This document shows positions 15,747-24,207 of a stretch of 32,000 nucleotides of DNA, piece after piece. The notes beneath the pieces are model-generated. The model was not told the DNA's origin. It did not search any database and saw only the letters and a program-made list of their open reading frames with translations. The position numbers and the translations under genes are program-made. The stretch is taken from positions 660,001 to 692,000 of the forward strand of contig CP064992.1 of assembly GCA_016699935.1 (NCBI GenBank), in the 5' to 3' direction. Position 1 is the stretch's first letter. Each line of letters begins with the position of its first letter. Origin of the DNA: Candidatus Saccharimonadota bacterium (GTDB lineage Bacteria > Patescibacteriota > Saccharimonadia > Saccharimonadales > UBA4665).

Positions 15747-17225
15747 ATGCCTTTTACAGGAACAGGTACTGGAATACAAAATGCTAACGATGTTTTCTTT
15801 AGCAACCCTAGTGATGGACAAACAATTCAGTACAATAGTGCAACGGCAAAATGGAACAACGTTGTAGGCACAAGCGACCCAGCTCTTGGGGGAGATCTCA
15901 CGGGTACAGCAAGTAATGCTCAAATTGCCGCAAATGCTGTTGGCTCGACGGAGATAACCAACAGTGCTGTCGGTACGACTGAACTGGCCGATGGAAGTGT
16001 GACCGAACCAAAATTGTCGATAAGCAACAGCCCTGCGTCTAACCAAGTGCTGAGTTGGGACGGCACGGATATGACCTGGGCGACACCGTCTGCTGGGGTT
16101 GACGACGGGACGCGCCTACTGGATTCTTTTGCCGGGGCTGACGATGACGCGAAACTGACAGCGGCTATAACTTGGCAGCAGGGGCACTCCCGTATGCCAG
16201 CGATTCGTTTGGGCTCACGGCTACACACATTTAACCAGACCAGACAACTATATAGTGGCCTCAAACTAATCGGTACGCCCGCTGGTCCGCGCAATCTTGA
16301 GCAGAGCGGTGGGGTGTTTGTACCAACGCGTATCAATCTGGGTGCAGCAATATCTTCTGGTACCTCTAGTTGGTGGGTGACCCCTGGTGGCAACCTGTTT
16401 GACATCTACATGGCAGACTTTGCGGTCGCGGGAGACGGTGGAGTTTCGAAGCATCAATTCATAGATGTGACGACTGGTTCGCTTTATGCCTGTCAATTTC
16501 ATGCCTTGTCGTTTAACATGATGCGCTCTGTCTTTGGTAGAAAAGATCGAAAATGTCTCATTACACAAACTTTATTTACTGGCCACTGGACCGCCAATAA
16601 CCTTTGGGATACACAGTTCATGCTCGGTGGTGCCGACAACAATCTTTGGATGGACGGGTACCTGAACATCGGCCCTAGCTCCAGCCCAGCTCAGACGGGT
16701 ACATATGCCGACAATGACTATGAACTAATTTTGATTCGCTCAGTAAGACCAATGTCGGTTTTATCTTTATGTCCGCTCTCAACGGTTGGCGAGGTCTCAA
16801 GGTGTCCGGTAGTGCCGGCCATGGCTTACGCTTTTGGTGGAGCCTACGAAGGCTATAAAAGTAGCAATGACAATCTAGCCGCGCCCGGCACAGTCATACG
16901 CCCAGAGGGCGGCAACGGGGCGTTCTTTAGCCCGAGTATCGGGCAGGGTATGCAAAGCCCAGACGTAGCCGAGTCGGGTCTGGTACACATAACGGGTGGC
17001 GAATGGGCGTTTTATTCGCCGACGTTCTATCGGACTCCTGCCGCTGACACCGTGCCGATGATATACGCTTCTGGTGGACGAGTGCTCGTAGAGGGCGCGA
17101 CGCGTAACGATGCTCAAGAGGCCTGGACAACACGGCCAAAATACTTGCTCGGTGGCCCAATGGTGACTGGTCCTAGTAGCGGCGAAAACGTCTTTTACTG
17201 TCCCGATATGTCAATGGTACCGTAA
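15747..17225 (+). CDS. Phage tail-fibre/tailspike-like protein (N-terminal fibre repeats plus pectate-lyase-like body)
   Basis: The N-terminus reads IQNANDVFFSNPSDGQTIQYNSATAKWNN and AVGSTEITNSAVGTTELADGSVTEPKLS...QVLSWDGTDMTW. This is followed by DDAKLTAAITWQQGHSRMPAIRLGSRLHTF. There is a hidden out-of-frame patch at 16729-16835, where SLSKTNVGFIFMSALNGWRGLKVSGSAGHGLRF reads in another frame. Confidence 0.6.
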   Translation: MPFTGTGTGIQNANDVFFSNPSDGQTIQYNSATAKWNNVVGTSDPALGGDLTGTASNAQIAANAVGSTEITNSAVGTTELADGSVTEPKLSISNSPASNQVLSWDGTDMTWATPSAGVDDGTRLLDSFAGADDDAKLTAAITWQQGHSRMPAIRLGSRLHTFNQTRQLYSGLKLIGTPAGPRNLEQSGGVFVPTRINLGAAISSGTSSWWVTPGGNLFDIYMADFAVAGDGGVSKHQFIDVTTGSLYACQFHALSFNMMRSVFGRKDRKCLITQTLFTGHWTANNLWDTQFMLGGADNNLWMDGYLNIGPSSSPAQTGTYADNDYELILIRSVRPMSVLSLCPLSTVGEVSRCPVVPAMAYAFGGAYEGYKSSNDNLAAPGTVIRPEGGNGAFFSPSIGQGMQSPDVAESGLVHITGGEWAFYSPTFYRTPAADTVPMIYASGGRVLVEGATRNDAQEAWTTRPKYLLGGPMVTGPSSGENVFYCPDMSMVP

Positions 17226-17308
17226 GGATAGACTAGAGACCTCCCCGCAAAATAACTCCGTAGTCCATAACGCGCCCTTTTTGTCCCAAATAGAACAATA
17301 ACCTTCGC

Positions 17309-17328
17309 ATCGTAACAGCGGTTACGAT
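17309..17328. terminator. Hairpin between convergent genes (weak bidirectional terminator candidate)
   Basis: ATCGTAAC-agcg-GTTACGAT forms an 8-bp stem. The flanks have only short T/A runs. Confidence 0.3.
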
Positions 17329-17398
17329 TTGTCAGCTATTGCCAATTTGAAACAAAAATCATCACGTTCTGGGTATACGGATTATTCTGCAAGAGGTC

Positions 17399-21812: not shown

Positions 21813-21827
21813 AAAAGCAAAGAAATT

Positions 21828-23054
21828 ATGTCAATCAGCGCCCGACGGTTACAACGAGTCCAGCACATCGCATCGGAGCAGCCGTTTGGTGTTTTATATG
21901 GTCGGACGATTACGCTCAATCAGCATACATTGGCTGACACGCCTGCTGTTATTAGCGCTGGTACGTCACGGTTTACCTACAAAATTCAGCAAAATGTGAC
22001 AAAAATTCGCCTGACCTTCATGAACTGGTATAACTCTAGCTACAAAGCTACGCAATATTGCACCGACAATCCAAATACGGCAGCGTTGACCGTGCAGGCT
22101 CTTGTCTTCGGGCCAGGGTCTTCTACCGGAACGGCCGTGACCGTTAGCGGTAGTGCTTCGTGGGCTGTAAATGGCGGCGGATGGGTACAGACAGACTGGA
22201 TAGCCGTACCGATGAATGCTGGCGACTTATTCGATGTGCAAACCTACGTTTCAGGTACACAGTGGTACCCAACGCTCGTCTATAGCGGTTGGTGGACGAG
22301 TGGTTCCAATCAAGCGACTGGCGGTTCTGCAAAAATTACCAGTGGTGCAGGCGTGAGCACCGGAATCTACATGCCCGCAGTCATAACTGGCGACCACTCA
22401 AGCAGTGCAGTACTTATCATGGGAGACTCAATTGCTTATAACTCAGCGCTGCCAAGCATCGGCTATATCGAAAAAGGTTTGGATGGCAGCTATGGCGCTA
22501 TAAACGCGGCAGTCGCTGGCGATCGGCTGTATTGGGCGTTGGATGGTACGCACCGCGATGAAAGCTGGTTGTTCAACGCCGATGCGAGCACGGTGGTCGT
22601 CGAATATGGACGCAACGATCTGAGCGACGGTCGCACACTTGCGCAGTTGCAGGCCAATCTTATCACGCTCTGGACGCAGCGAAGCGGTACTGGTCAGCGC
22701 GTCATTCAGACAACCATTACGCCCAATACGAACAGTACCGACTCGTGGGCGACCACGGCCAACCAGACCGTTGTAAATGCAACCGTCGAAGGTCGCCGCG
22801 TGCAACTAAATGATTGGCTGCGAGCCGGCGCACCGACAGTCGGTGGCGTAGCTGTCGCACCCGGCACGGGCGGGGCATTACTGGCTGGCCAAGCGGGACA
22901 CCCACTGTACAACTACTGGGAAATAGCCGACCATGCTGAATCAGCGCGCAACTCTGGCATATGGAAAGTCGGCTACACGGGCGATGGCCTCCACCCTACC
23001 GCAACCGGCATAAACGCACTGTCTCTAGGTGTCGATCACGCAATGATTGTCTAG
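21828..23054 (+). CDS. Two-domain SGNH/GDSL hydrolase (N-terminal beta-sandwich-like domain) with an N-terminal RR tag
   Basis: The intact 408-aa product reads MSISARRLQRVQHI. It has block I LIMGDSIAYN, block II AVAGDR, block III EYGRNDL and block V GDGLHPT. Confidence 0.8.
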   Translation: MSISARRLQRVQHIASEQPFGVLYGRTITLNQHTLADTPAVISAGTSRFTYKIQQNVTKIRLTFMNWYNSSYKATQYCTDNPNTAALTVQALVFGPGSSTGTAVTVSGSASWAVNGGGWVQTDWIAVPMNAGDLFDVQTYVSGTQWYPTLVYSGWWTSGSNQATGGSAKITSGAGVSTGIYMPAVITGDHSSSAVLIMGDSIAYNSALPSIGYIEKGLDGSYGAINAAVAGDRLYWALDGTHRDESWLFNADASTVVVEYGRNDLSDGRTLAQLQANLITLWTQRSGTGQRVIQTTITPNTNSTDSWATTANQTVVNATVEGRRVQLNDWLRAGAPTVGGVAVAPGTGGALLAGQAGHPLYNYWEIADHAESARNSGIWKVGYTGDGLHPTATGINALSLGVDHAMIV

Positions 23055-23357
23055 CTTTCCTGACCTACACTTTACTTTATTGACCACTAAAGAAAAACGA
23101 CCGAGCTGGTTCCGTCTGGCCTGGGAATATCCGTAGCGGCTTCTTCTTACGCCGCCGCTACCACCGATCCCGGTGGCTCGGTTACAACGGGGAGGGCAAA
23201 AAGTGAGCGTGGGTCAGCTAGCTTTCCTTTAGCGGACTACCGTGTGCTATATTTATAAGCAGTATGAGAGAGTCGATTCATAATATTGTGGTAGTTGTAG
23301 CTTGGGATCTCGCTGCACAATCAGCAAGAGTAGAACAGTTGGGTTGTAGGTGACCAT

Positions 23358-24207
23358 ATGACGTTTAGTCGCAGAATGGCTTCAGCTGCAAATCCGAGGC
23401 CGACCTATTATGGAGCCTGCCCAACCAATCCTGGTGGTGATTCGCTAGCCGCAGCAACGACTGTTCTTACTAAATGGGGTACCCGGGTTTCGGTGAGGCA
23501 ATTTACGGGTGCTACGCTCACGCCGCCCAATCATCCTGCGGGAGCATCGGTTGTTCATACTACCTACAAACCTAGTGTCGCAGCGGTATTAAATGGTTCT
23601 CTAGATGCTGATATAACGACACTCGTTTTAGGTACACCCGATGGCGATATTATTGAATTTTGGCACGAGCCTGATAATGATGGGCTGACTGGCCAGGGTA
23701 TAACTGATATGATTGACTGCAAAAATTATCTCTATGACATGAAGCAAACATTGAAGCCTGGAGTGCGGGTTGCGGCTACGATGACAGGCGGTTTTTTTGC
23801 CTCGTATACATCGCAAGCAACGCGTGATTTGTGGGATGGGCTTAGGGGTGACCTCGTGGGTGTCGATTGCGATGGGGTGCATGATGCAACCGGCCCCACC
23901 TACGATATGACGTATGCCGATGAGCTTACAAATGTTCTTGCGTTCATGAAAAAATCATGCCCACGGTTGGTTTGGATGGACCATACCAGAAATGGGCACG
24001 TCACGGCAGCCGTGGGATACCGACGGAACGGCACGTGCGCTATGGTTCGAGACGCAGTTCCAGCTGCTTGTAGCAATGCATCCATATGCAATCATGCTGT
24101 ATGACTACAATACGGCCGCTCACAATCTGCCTGATGACTACAATGCGGTCTATGCCACAACACCCGAATTTGATGTATGGAACGCTGCGATTGCGACCAA
24201 CCCATAA
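23358..24207 (+). CDS. Clan GH-A-like (GH26/GH5-like) TIM-barrel glycoside hydrolase with an N-terminal RR tag, with one frame break at A-run 23949-23954
   Basis: The product reads MTFSRRMASAANP, with FWHEPDND (acid/base-type HE/NEP motif). After the shift it reads NHAHGWFGWTIPEMG (nucleophile-type motif) and continues into ORF 23992-24207. The family assignment comes from motifs only. Confidence 0.55.

What the first reader, a model, noticed from the sequence alone, without database searches (positions are those of the whole stretch)
15747..24207. Seven-gene island of predicted surface-glycan/ester-cleaving enzymes wedged between housekeeping genes
A block with no housekeeping logic sits between ileS/GATase and rplU. 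Its members are:
- 15747-17225: a protein with phage tail-fibre-like N-terminal repeats and a tailspike/pectate-lyase-like body.
- 17399-18333 (minus): a calcineurin-like metallophosphoesterase.
- 18403-18765: an unknown 120-aa protein.
- 18920-19805: an SGNH hydrolase.
- 19894-21812: a right-handed beta-helix protein.
- 21828-23054: a beta-sandwich plus SGNH hydrolase.
- 23358-24207: a clan GH-A-like glycosidase.

Esterase, lyase/glycosidase and phosphoesterase together are the activities needed to strip acyl groups, phosphodiester links and glycosidic bonds from a wall polymer such as a teichoic-acid-like or capsular glycan. The block lies directly upstream of a gene for a surface fibre of more than 2300 aa. 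In a reduced, probably episymbiotic genome this looks like a dedicated module for remodelling the host surface or the organism's own envelope. I cannot map it to any named system.
Basis: partly seen in the sequence, partly recalled or inferred. Interest (0 to 1): 0.75.

Follow-up and report, generated by a model that had tools for sequence, protein, structure and literature searches.

The report
Phage-derived glycan-cutting enzyme cassette in Saccharibacteria
A tiny parasitic bacterium (Saccharibacteria) carries, among its housekeeping genes, a conserved set of sugar- and ester-cutting enzymes copied from the tail tips of viruses that infect Actinobacteria (the phylum that hosts cultivated Saccharibacteria); several of them share a short, undescribed N-terminal tag, which suggests a borrowed toolkit for attacking a cell surface.

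Summary
All seven genes are at the stated coordinates and six of the seven domain calls are verified: two right-handed beta-helix proteins, two SGNH esterases, a metallophosphoesterase and a clan GH-A-like (beta/alpha)8 glycosidase. The 120-aa protein remains unknown.

The window is a frameshift-ridden MAG of Candidatus Saccharibacteria (locus tags IPL68_04395 to IPL68_04440).

New findings:
- Five enzyme domains have homologues in tail modules or minor tail proteins of phages from high-GC contigs or actinobacterial hosts.
- There is no capsid, portal, tape-measure or integrase gene here or in eight related loci. GC3 matches the flanks and dN/dS is far below 1. This is a long-resident cassette, not a prophage.
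- Only the core (tailspike-like protein, then beta-helix, then SGNH esterase) recurs, in that order, and at different chromosomal sites. The beta-helix and esterase are fused in one genome. The other four genes are variable. The giant fibre is never nearby elsewhere.
- Four island enzymes, plus GH26 and GH18-like enzymes in another genome, start with M-S-x-x-A-R-R-L-Q-R. The tag occurs on 14 of 32 cassette genes and 0 of 111 other genes. It has no hydrophobic signal region.

Export route and target (host or own wall) are unproven. I rate it a new variant of a known kind, of moderate to high interest.

The parts
15747..17225 (+). Tailspike-like protein ('TF'). It has an N-terminal phage-fibre-type segment (DVFFSNP..GQTIQYNSATAKWNN; DUF5907-like) and a C-terminal right-handed beta-helix body of about 370 aa. 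There is an SD-like AGGAG upstream. Residues of about 325-365 (16719-16845) are garbled by two compensating frameshifts.
17399..18333 (-). Calcineurin-like metallophosphoesterase. The N-terminus MFTRRSFKAAAGTLL looks like a short Tat/Sec-type signal, followed by a frameshift near 18290. It is the only island gene on the minus strand. This is an accessory gene, not conserved with the core.
18403..18765 (+). 120-aa protein of unknown function, with a sub-threshold DUF1697 hit. It is probably not part of the enzyme set.
18920..19805 (+). SGNH-type esterase 1 (frameshift at about 19470). It is homologous to an internal domain of minor tail / tail fibre proteins of Rhodococcus, Gordonia and Arthrobacter phages (30-38% identity). 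It starts with the tag MAAFARRMLS.
19894..21812 (+). Pel9A-like right-handed beta-helix protein, 639 aa after repair. Two compensating indels at about 20070-20090 create an in-frame TAG, and there is a 1-nt deletion at about 21085. It starts with the tag MSIAARRMQR. Orthologues are 76-80% identical.
21828..23054 (+). N-terminal beta-sandwich-like region (not modelled here) plus SGNH esterase 2, 408 aa and intact. It has GDS, GxND and DxxH blocks and matches phrog_8480. It starts with the tag MSISARRLQR. In another genome it is fused to the C-terminus of the beta-helix protein.
23358..24207 (+). Clan GH-A-like (beta/alpha)8 glycosidase, 283 aa after repair of an A-run frameshift at about 23955. 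It has the invariant HE(P) motif and a second invariant Glu (PExG). It starts with the tag-like MTFSRRMAS. Homologues sit in siphophage tail modules or carry signal peptide, dockerin or CBM modules.
18920..18949 (+). N-terminal tag (variant MAAFARRMLS)
19894..19923 (+). N-terminal tag MSIAARRMQR
21828..21857 (+). N-terminal tag MSISARRLQR
23358..23384 (+). Degenerate N-terminal tag MTFSRRMAS
18906..18911 (+). TATAAT box ending 8 nt before the ATG of SGNH1, with no SD. This is a leaderless-like arrangement.
19881..19886 (+). TATAAT box ending 7 nt before the ATG of the beta-helix gene, with no SD. This is a leaderless-like arrangement.

Best explanation
The block is a long-resident chromosomal cassette of enzymes. 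Their catalytic domains derive from, or are shared with, tail proteins (tailspikes and 'minor tail proteins'), mostly of phages from high-GC contigs or actinobacterial hosts. Actinobacteria are the phylum on which cultivated Saccharibacteria live.

The functional core is a tailspike-like beta-helix protein, a Pel9A-like beta-helix protein and a beta-sandwich/SGNH esterase. In this genome a second SGNH esterase, a clan GH-A glycosidase and an exported-looking metallophosphoesterase have been added. The 120-aa gene is probably a bystander.

Shown:
- the folds and catalytic motifs;
- the phage homology;
- the absence of phage structural genes;
- purifying selection;
- conserved core order at different chromosomal sites;
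- a shared ~10-residue N-terminal tag (M-S-x-x-A-R-R-L-Q-R) on enzymes of several unrelated folds.

Inferred:
- The enzymes work outside the cytoplasm on an acylated glycan of an actinobacterial-type envelope, most likely the host's. The SGNH enzymes would remove acyl groups, and the beta-helix proteins and the GH-A enzyme would cut the backbone, as phage tail depolymerases do.
- The tag replaces the phage tail-anchoring N-terminus. It serves as a common targeting or docking peptide, either onto the co-occurring tailspike-like protein or onto an unidentified export or surface structure.
For: Organism and context:
- The SGNH2 and TF proteins are 100% identical to NCBI proteins of Candidatus Saccharibacteria bacterium on a 1,226,308-bp contig.
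- Housekeeping genes flank the block on both sides.

Phage ancestry:
- SGNH1 matches minor tail / tail fibre proteins in 60 phage records, mostly Arthrobacter, Gordonia and Rhodococcus phages. In Rhodococcus phage Tonitrus the match lies in gp36 'minor tail protein'.
- SGNH2 matches phrog_8480 and the Arthrobacter phage AbbyDaisy esterase.
- GH-A homologues P0130 and P0139 lie after tape-measure, Dit-like and Sipho_Gp37 genes in contigs of 65-69% GC.
- TF-body homologues at 37-58% identity lie in phage-like contigs of 67-74% GC.
- The beta-helix family has 1360 cluster representatives with diverse N-termini.

Not a prophage:
- No capsid, portal, terminase, tube, tape-measure or integrase gene occurs in the window or in loci L001-L004, L006, L012-L014 and L019.
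- In L012 the island is bounded by UDG and RNase J.
- There are no tRNA genes.
- GC3 is 0.43-0.58 in the island and 0.36-0.57 in the flanks.

Selection:
- dN is 0.14-0.31 with dS saturated. Where dS is defined, omega is 0.016-0.098.

Functional linkage:
- TF, then beta-helix, then SGNH2 keep the same order in L001, L002 and L004/L012. TF is followed by the beta-helix in L019. TF and SGNH2 occur in L003 and L006.
- The beta-helix and SGNH2 are fused into one 1042-aa ORF in L004/L012.

Extracytoplasmic nature of the domains:
- GH-A homologues carry a signal peptide plus dockerin (P0123, Saccharibacteria), a TM anchor or a CBM.
- TF-body homologues P0188 and P0189 carry Tat-type signals.

Tag:
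- It is present on 14 of 32 cassette genes and 0 of 111 other genes in seven Saccharibacteria loci (Fisher p = 3.6e-10).
- It is also on GH26 and GH18-like proteins in L014 and on beta-helix paralogues.
- Codons vary synonymously while the residues are kept.

Precedent:
[quoted passage not shown] The phage enzyme was shown to be an endo-D-arabinanase; the M. amalyticus one did not yield soluble protein (PMC10115798).
Against: - No Sec or Tat signal, lipobox or sortase motif is visible in five of the seven proteins. No export route is identified.
- No experiment or transcript data exist.
- The substrate is unknown. Saccharibacteria have a Gram-positive-type wall (my own knowledge), so a self target is not excluded.
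- Only three GTDB species representatives carry a close SGNH2, so the tagged cassette may be confined to one clade.
- Four of the seven genes are not conserved with the core.
- Five genes need frame repair, and real pseudogenisation cannot be ruled out from this assembly.
- The direction of transfer (phage to Saccharibacteria or the reverse) was not tested phylogenetically.
- The hosts of the high-GC phage contigs are inferred from GC content only.
Confidence: 0.55

Rival explanations
1. The enzymes are autolysins that remodel the organism's own envelope. They would trim or deacylate the Saccharibacteria cell wall or surface glycans during growth and division.
For: - The genes are chromosomal, compositionally native and under purifying selection.
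- They are embedded among cell-division and wall genes: ftsA/ftsZ upstream here, and a PBP and Transgly_assoc gene next to the cassette in L001 and L003.
- Saccharibacteria have a Gram-positive-type wall (my own knowledge), which could resemble the substrates of actinophage enzymes.
Against: - Ordinary autolysins carry Sec signals; these proteins do not.
- Their closest non-Saccharibacteria relatives are phage tail proteins, not housekeeping wall enzymes.
- Gene content varies strongly between close relatives, which fits arms-race genes better than core wall maintenance.
- A close SGNH2 is found in only three GTDB species representatives.
Confidence: 0.17
2. The block is a tail-fibre module of a prophage, tailocin or other phage-tail-like particle whose remaining structural genes lie elsewhere in the genome. 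Alternatively it is a decaying remnant of such an element.
For: - Five of the enzyme domains have phage tail-protein homologues.
- Related islands also hold collagen-like tail-fibre genes (phrog_819, E 2e-49).
- The proteins lack secretion signals, as virion proteins do.
- Frameshifts are present in five genes.
Against: - No structural, packaging, lysis or integration gene lies within 15.7 kb upstream or 7.8 kb downstream, or in eight related loci. Both borders are housekeeping genes.
- rplU separates the block from the next large gene.
- Omega is far below 1 and ORF lengths are retained across genomes.
- GC3 equals that of the flanks.
- Frameshifts also hit ileS and RNR, so they are assembly noise.
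- Only one distant relative of SGNH2 was found in IMG/VR.
Confidence: 0.12
3. The block is not one system. It is a core pair or triple (tailspike-like protein, beta-helix, SGNH2) next to unrelated neighbours (phosphoesterase, 120-aa protein, perhaps SGNH1 and GH-A) that happen to be adjacent in a compact genome. The enzymes may simply scavenge free environmental polysaccharides in activated sludge.
For: - Only the core is syntenic.
- The phosphoesterase is on the opposite strand with its own signal-like N-terminus.
- Genes have separate promoter-like boxes.
- GH-A homologues with dockerin or CBM modules resemble ordinary secreted CAZymes.
- In such small genomes everything lies between housekeeping genes.
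Against: - SGNH1 and GH-A share the N-terminal tag with the core enzymes, which ties four of the seven genes together.
- A phosphoesterase fragment lies next to the cassette in L002.
- Free-polysaccharide scavenging enzymes would be expected to carry signal peptides.
Confidence: 0.16

Closest known systems
Virion-associated esterase and depolymerase domains of actinobacteriophage minor tail proteins (for example Rhodococcus phage Tonitrus gp36, ReqiPepy6 tail fibre, Arthrobacter phage AbbyDaisy esterase; phrog_11419, phrog_8480)
   Same: The SGNH catalytic domains are homologous: 30-38% identity for SGNH1 and 34% for SGNH2. Like the phage proteins, they lack signal peptides. GH-A and TF-body homologues sit in siphophage tail modules.
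   Different: Here the domains are free-standing chromosomal genes of a cellular organism with no virion genes. The long phage N-terminal anchoring regions are replaced by a ~10-aa tag. Composition is that of the Saccharibacteria genome.
Multi-tailspike (branched) receptor-binding systems such as CBA120 TSP1-4 and phage G7C gp63.1/gp66. Comparison from my own knowledge, plus Foldseek hit 6nw9.
   Same: Several different depolymerases or esterases are encoded side by side. They share a conserved N-terminal element while their catalytic bodies differ. The beta-helix bodies resemble each other structurally. An SGNH deacetylase is combined with a glycan-cutting spike.
   Different: In those phages the shared N-termini are folded domains of about 100 residues or more that dock on a baseplate. 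Here the shared element is about 10 residues and no baseplate is known. Docking was not tested.
DUF4185-family (arabinogalactan-degrading endo-D-arabinanase family) and GH172 enzymes encoded by Ca. Mycosynbacter amalyticus; the DUF4185 family also occurs in Gordonia phage GMA6 (PMC10115798)
   Same: This is a precedent that a Saccharibacteria-type parasite of Actinobacteria and the phages of its host encode members of the same host-wall glycosidase family.
   Different: The enzyme families are different. That M. amalyticus enzyme is a predicted lipoprotein with a normal export signal, with no tag and no tailspike-like partner. Only the phage enzyme was assayed; the M. amalyticus DUF4185 protein was insoluble. 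The enzymes in this window are untested.
Clan GH-A glycoside hydrolases, with GH26 and GH53 as nearest structures
   Same: The fold is a (beta/alpha)8 barrel, with an invariant His-Glu and a second invariant Glu that I take to sit on strands 4 and 7 (strand placement not mapped on the model).
   Different: There is no sequence-level match to any Pfam GH family or PDB chain. TM-scores are only 0.5-0.6. The CAZy family and the substrate are unassigned.

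Membership tests
Prophage / phage tail module | Contiguous capsid, portal, terminase, tail tube or tape-measure genes | tested here: not met
   Pfam, PHROGs and NCBIfam scans of the island and flanks find only housekeeping genes outside 15747-24207. The same holds in L001-L003 and L012-L014.
Prophage / phage tail module | Integrase, tRNA or att-type boundary, and foreign base composition | tested here: not met
   No tRNA gene and no integrase family hit. GC3 of the island equals that of the flanks. Direct repeats at the borders were not searched.
SGNH/GDSL hydrolase | Pfam Lipase_GDSL_2 above the gathering score | tested here: met
   21828-23054 scores 35.9 bits against a 32.9-bit cut-off. SGNH1 (18920-19805) scores only 19.7 bits, below cut-off, but it matches phrog_11419 at E 5e-29.
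SGNH/GDSL hydrolase | Catalytic blocks I (GDS), III (GxND) and V (DxxH) | tested here: met
   G199-D200-S201, N263-D264 and D386..H389 are invariant in 16 SGNH2 sequences. SGNH1 has WGSS, GKND and DTGH (read directly from the sequence).
Calcineurin-like metallophosphoesterase | Pfam Metallophos above the gathering score, with metal-binding motifs | tested here: met
   The score is 34.5 bits against a 21.5-bit cut-off. The substrate is unknown and there is no PDB relative by sequence.
Right-handed parallel beta-helix (pectate-lyase / tailspike fold) | Beta-helix fold shown by HMM or structure | tested here: met
   For 19894-21812, Beta_helix scores 26.2 bits against 25.9, and orthologues carry Pel9A-like_beta_helix. 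For 15747-17225, the AF2 model of a 73%-identical homologue matches tailspikes and AlgE epimerases, E 6e-6 to 1e-3.
Right-handed parallel beta-helix (pectate-lyase / tailspike fold) | Identified catalytic residues or lyase-versus-hydrolase mechanism | not tested
   No active-site mapping was done. TM-scores to solved enzymes are low (0.25-0.47).
Clan GH-A glycoside hydrolase | (beta/alpha)8 barrel with an acid/base Glu after strand 4 and a nucleophile Glu after strand 7 | tested here: met
   The AF2 model has pLDDT 88.9. Foldseek top hits are GH26, GH53, GH5 and GH10 enzymes. H142-E143 and E251 are invariant in 24 sequences. The model is of homologue P0127, not of the frameshifted window protein. 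Placement of the Glu residues on strands 4 and 7 was assumed from the motifs, not mapped on the model.
Clan GH-A glycoside hydrolase | Assignment to a named CAZy/Pfam GH family | tested here: not met
   No Pfam family matches at E <= 1. No PDB sequence-profile hit. dbCAN was not available.
Sec/Tat-exported proteins | N-terminal signal with a hydrophobic core (Tat: S/T-R-R-x-F-L-K plus h-region) | tested here: not met
   By inspection, the tagged proteins have RR but then polar or charged residues (for example MSISARRLQRVQHIASEQ). Only the phosphoesterase (MFTRRSFKAAAGTLL) is signal-like, and it is cut short by a frameshift. No signal-peptide predictor was available.
Contractile or non-contractile phage-tail-like nanomachine (tailocin, eCIS) | Tube, sheath and baseplate genes | not testable with these tools
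   None is in the window or in related loci. The rest of the 1.23-Mb genome could not be read.

The most novel reading that the evidence does not exclude
The M-S-x-x-A-R-R-L-Q-R peptide is a previously unrecognised N-terminal targeting or docking signal of Saccharibacteria. It marks a fold-diverse arsenal: two SGNH esterase families, at least two beta-helix families, a new GH-A family, GH26 and a GH18-like enzyme. The signal either exports these enzymes without a classical signal peptide or loads them onto a phage-derived host-attack structure. That structure could be the co-encoded tailspike-like protein, or conceivably the tip ('barb') of the 9-nm lance-like tube seen by cryo-ET on Ca. Mycosynbacter amalyticus (PMC11880426). 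In that case the parasite would use its host's phages' receptor-destroying enzymes to breach the actinobacterial envelope.
Probability: 0.2. Interest if true: 0.85.

Novelty: new variant of a known kind. Interest (0 to 1): 0.6.

Why it matters
How Saccharibacteria and other Patescibacteria recognise and breach the envelope of their host bacteria is largely unknown beyond type IV pili.

A conserved chromosomal cassette of phage-tail-type depolymerases and esterases would give concrete, testable candidate effectors. The shared short tag also occurs on GH26 and GH18-like enzymes. It would give a sequence handle for listing the whole arsenal in any genome.

It would also be an example of a cellular parasite re-using the receptor-destroying enzymes of its host's viruses. 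Such enzymes could be useful against mycolata that cause foaming in activated sludge.

If the genes instead remodel the organism's own wall, the finding is of ordinary interest.

Tried and rejected
- NCBIfam: no hit for any island protein.
- tblastn of the TF, beta-helix and GH-A proteins against 50,697 GenBank phage records: no match. The phage link for these three rests on metagenomic contigs.
- PDB sequence searches: nothing useful for GH-A or the phosphoesterase. The beta-helix gave only a weak GH120 xylosidase hit, 3vst.
- IMG/VR scan with the SGNH2 alignment: one distant locus only.
- Metagenome scan with the flanking amidotransferase, meant to find an 'empty site' (ileS-GATase-rplU without the island): no relatives found. 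Insertion against ancestral position is therefore unresolved.
- The first TF alignment was too divergent for a scan.
- Rfam: no RNA family in the window.
- The consensus promoter and terminator scan was at or below shuffle expectation. The TATAAT boxes close to start codons were found by eye.
- Tat-signal reading of the RR tag: rejected because there is no hydrophobic core.
- RNA-level or DNA-recombination-site reading of the tag: rejected because codons differ while residues are kept.
- MAG contamination by actinophage DNA: rejected because GC is about 0.50 and both borders are Saccharibacteria housekeeping genes in several independent assemblies.
- Literature searches (Saccharibacteria with tail fiber, SGNH, tailspike, pectate lyase or depolymerase; the Southlakia Tn-seq paper; a 2026 host-defence preprint): no description of these genes.

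Full report
**Source and sequence quality**

The 408-aa product of 21828-23054 is 100% identical to an NCBI protein of 'Candidatus Saccharibacteria bacterium' on a 1,226,308-bp contig. The first and last island genes match IPL68_04395 and IPL68_04440 of the same record.

The window is full of frame breaks. Essential genes such as ileS (11746-15010) and ribonucleotide reductase (8200-10187) are split. Five island genes are also broken:
- two compensating indels that create an in-frame TAG at about 20070-20090, plus a 1-nt deletion at about 21085, in the beta-helix gene;
- a shift at about 19470 in SGNH1;
- a shift in an A-run at about 23955 in the glycosidase;
- a shift near 18290 in the phosphoesterase;
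- a garbled stretch at 16719-16845 in the first gene.

I treat these as assembly errors, which is an inference. I worked with repaired translations or with intact orthologues.

**Check of the observation**

The flanks are YqeY, map, ftsA, ftsZ, an ATP-cone protein, RNR, ileS and a C26 amidotransferase upstream, and rplU downstream.

Domain calls:
- Metallophos is above its cut-off.
- Lipase_GDSL_2 is above its cut-off for 21828-23054, with invariant GDS, GxND and DxxH blocks.
- Beta_helix is just above its cut-off for the repaired 19894-21812. Its orthologues carry Pel9A-like_beta_helix.
- SGNH1 is recognised mainly through phrog_11419 'tail fiber protein' (E 5e-29).
- The first protein has no Pfam body domain. 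An AF2 model of its 73%-identical homologue P0148 (pLDDT 86.5) is a right-handed beta-helix. Its best PDB matches are phage tailspikes (CBA120 TSP3, HK620, Sf6), alginate epimerases/lyases and inulin fructotransferases.
- The last protein has no Pfam or PDB sequence match. An AF2 model of family member P0127 (pLDDT 88.9) is a (beta/alpha)8 barrel, closest to GH26 and GH53 and then to GH5 and GH10. A His-Glu and a second Glu are invariant.
- The 120-aa protein stays unknown.

**What the proteins are related to**

Five of the enzyme domains have phage tail-protein relatives.
- SGNH1 hits 60 phage records, mostly Arthrobacter, Gordonia and Rhodococcus phages, annotated as minor tail or tail fibre proteins. 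In Rhodococcus phage Tonitrus the match lies in gp36, inside the structural module.
- SGNH2 is related to phrog_8480 and to the Arthrobacter phage AbbyDaisy esterase.
- Glycosidase homologues P0130 and P0139 sit directly after tape-measure, distal-tail-like and Sipho_Gp37 genes, in contigs of 65-69% GC.
- Tailspike-body homologues of 37-58% identity occur in phage-like contigs of 67-74% GC.
- The Pel9A-like beta-helix family has 1360 cluster representatives with very diverse N-terminal modules.

The same catalytic domains also occur with classical export modules. These include signal peptide plus dockerin (a Saccharibacteria protein, P0123), TM anchors, a CBM, and Tat signals. By family, therefore, these domains act outside the cytoplasm.

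**Prophage or resident genes**

No capsid, portal, terminase, tube, tape-measure, lysis or integrase gene occurs in the window. There is no tRNA gene.

Related cassettes in other Saccharibacteria contigs are likewise bounded by housekeeping genes:
- grpE/dnaK in L001 and L003;
- RNR and an HTH gene in L002;
- UDG and RNase J in L012;
- polA and dUTPase in L014.

Island GC3 (0.43-0.58) is that of the flanks (0.36-0.57) and nowhere near the 65-74% overall GC of the phage-like contigs. Orthologue pairs have dN of 0.14-0.31 with saturated dS. The two pairs with defined dS give omega of 0.016 and 0.098.

These are long-resident genes under purifying selection, not a prophage tail module or its wreck. 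A split locus, with structural genes elsewhere in the genome, cannot be excluded from 32 kb.

**What is conserved**

Only part of the block recurs.
- Tailspike-like gene(s), then beta-helix, then SGNH2 appear in this order in L001, L002 and L004/L012.
- The tailspike-like gene followed by the beta-helix appears in L019.
- The tailspike-like gene plus SGNH2 appear in L003 and L006.
- In L004/L012 the beta-helix and SGNH2 are one 1042-aa ORF. This gene fusion argues that the two act together.

The phosphoesterase, the 120-aa gene, SGNH1 and the glycosidase are absent from those loci, apart from an 87-aa phosphoesterase fragment in L002.

The tailspike-like family is widespread (at least 160 proteins, many on Saccharibacteria contigs of 0.2-0.9 Mb). 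It also occurs alone, for example between grpE and dnaK in L013.

Close SGNH2 relatives are found in only three GTDB species representatives. No homologue of the downstream giant fibre lies near any related cassette.

**The N-terminal tag**

Four island proteins begin MAAFARRMLS, MSIAARRMQR, MSISARRLQR and MTFSRRMAS.

The same start, with consensus M-S-[I/R/G]-x-A-R-R-L-Q-[R/Q], heads several other proteins:
- the beta-helix and SGNH2 orthologues;
- a 340-344-aa protein of unknown family with no Pfam or PHROG hit (L006, L012);
- a GH26 protein and an fn3/GH18-like protein in L014;
- beta-helix paralogues (L019, P0287).

By my hand count over seven Saccharibacteria loci, the tag is on 14 of 32 cassette-type genes and on none of 111 other genes (Fisher p = 3.6e-10).

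Other properties of the tag:
- Codons for the tag differ freely (AGC/TCA/AGT/TCT for Ser; CGA/AGA/AGG/CGC/CGG for Arg), so selection is on the peptide.
- It has twin arginines but no hydrophobic core, so it is not a Tat or Sec signal.
- In the fused L004 protein the internal copy is lost.
- Phage homologues instead have longer N-termini. Some contain a similar element after an anchor segment of about 30 residues (P0127 ...PPRRLQIARVRA; repeated 'LQVAEISL' units in neighbouring phage proteins). This hints that the tag descends from a phage tail docking strand. That is a lead, not a result.
- In my reading of the nine tag-bearing loci, a tailspike-like gene lies in the same locus as the tagged genes in eight, usually within about 5 kb; the exception is the 4-kb contig L005.
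- Tagged genes that start a transcription unit have a TATAAT-like box ending 6-12 nt before the ATG and no SD. Tailspike-like genes have an SD.

**Most likely mechanism**

Shown: folds, motifs, phage homology, residency, selection, core synteny, fusion, tag.

Inferred:
- The products act extracellularly as a depolymerase/deacylase set on an acylated glycan of an actinobacterial-type envelope.
- The host envelope is the likelier target. The relatives are tail enzymes of phages from high-GC contigs or actinobacterial hosts. Gene content varies between close relatives as arms-race genes do. [quoted passage not shown]
- The tag is a common targeting or docking peptide.

How the proteins leave the cell is unknown. 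This is the weakest link in the argument.

Cryo-ET of M. amalyticus shows an unexplained 9-nm lance-like tube with a barbed tip, induced by the host (PMC11880426). A connection to these genes is pure speculation.

**Novelty**

I found no description of these genes, the cassette or the tag in the searchable literature. The component folds and the idea of parasite-encoded host-wall enzymes are known.

I classify the finding as a new variant of a known kind. The tag is the most novel element.

Noticed in passing
window 8200-10187, 11746-15010, 4252-5564: Essential genes (RNR, ileS, ftsA) are split by frameshifts, as are five island genes. The pattern includes homopolymer indels and compensating indel pairs, and suggests an unpolished long-read assembly. 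Any ORF-level statement on this window needs frame repair.
   Followed up: partly
window ~25000-32000 (runs off the end): This is a giant fibre gene, itself frameshifted. It starts with a signal/TM-like N-terminus (MIKLKRTLLVLLA...). Next comes a conserved-looking domain (NFQARL...LWTETRTGANKVRVVNGYLTVNLG), then a long Thr/Gly/Ser/Asn-rich region with a large internal duplication (the same ~90-aa stretch occurs twice in 26589-28358), and a NosD/Beta_helix domain at 30262-31341. Unlike the island enzymes it has a classical export signal. No homologue lies near related cassettes.
   Followed up: partly
window 24595-25050: An AT-rich gap (GC about 0.40) separates rplU from the fibre gene. rplU is not followed by rpmA within the window, so the fibre gene sits where rpmA usually follows rplU (own knowledge).
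   Followed up: no
L004 8054-11185 = L012 13767-16895: The beta-helix protein and SGNH2 are fused into one 1042-aa ORF in another Saccharibacteria genome. The internal RRLQ tag is lost at the junction (...GTKHAGAWRGQTETPPIEETPLGLLYGRT).
   Followed up: yes
L013 8600-13823; L001 174-4127; L003 3356-13497: Tailspike-like genes or whole cassettes are repeatedly inserted inside the hrcA-grpE-dnaK-dnaJ heat-shock region. In L013 a single gene lies between grpE and dnaK. This suggests an ancestral site, an insertion hot spot or stress-linked co-expression.
   Followed up: no
L014 1586-4760 (minus strand): Two adjacent genes in another Saccharibacteria genome carry the same tag (MSRSARRLQQ, MSRIARRLQQ). 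One is a Glyco_hydro_26 protein and the other an fn3/GH18-like protein. This extends the tag to further glycosidase families.
   Followed up: partly
L007 12273-12752; L009 12342-12788; P0276, P0273, P0302 N-termini: High-GC phage tail proteins carry short repeated N-terminal units such as 'LQVAEISL', 'TLRVSSLAV' and 'RVRVHSTVITG'. These are sometimes right after the initiator Met. They resemble the Saccharibacteria tag and may be a docking-strand motif of actinophage tail tips.
   Followed up: no
window 18906-18911, 19881-19886, 18390-18395; related loci: TATAAT-like boxes end 6-12 nt before the ATG of tagged genes, with no Shine-Dalgarno sequence. This looks like leaderless mRNA. Tailspike-like genes instead have GGAGG-type SD sites.
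   Followed up: partly
L002 5094-5354 (minus strand): An 87-aa C-terminal fragment of the island's metallophosphoesterase (53% identity) lies next to the cassette of another genome and overlaps a plus-strand tail-like gene. It may be a relic of former linkage.
   Followed up: no
window 11746-12100: The ORF that contains the ileS N-terminus begins with a Hydrolase_3 (HAD-like) match at residues 10-115. This is probably the end of a separate upstream gene read through by a frame error.
   Followed up: no
L003 4636-6252; L012 4448-6193: Collagen-repeat tail-fibre-like genes (phrog_819, E 2e-49) and a conserved 471-aa gene of unknown function precede the tailspike-like genes in larger versions of the cassette. 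Neither is present in this window.
   Followed up: partly
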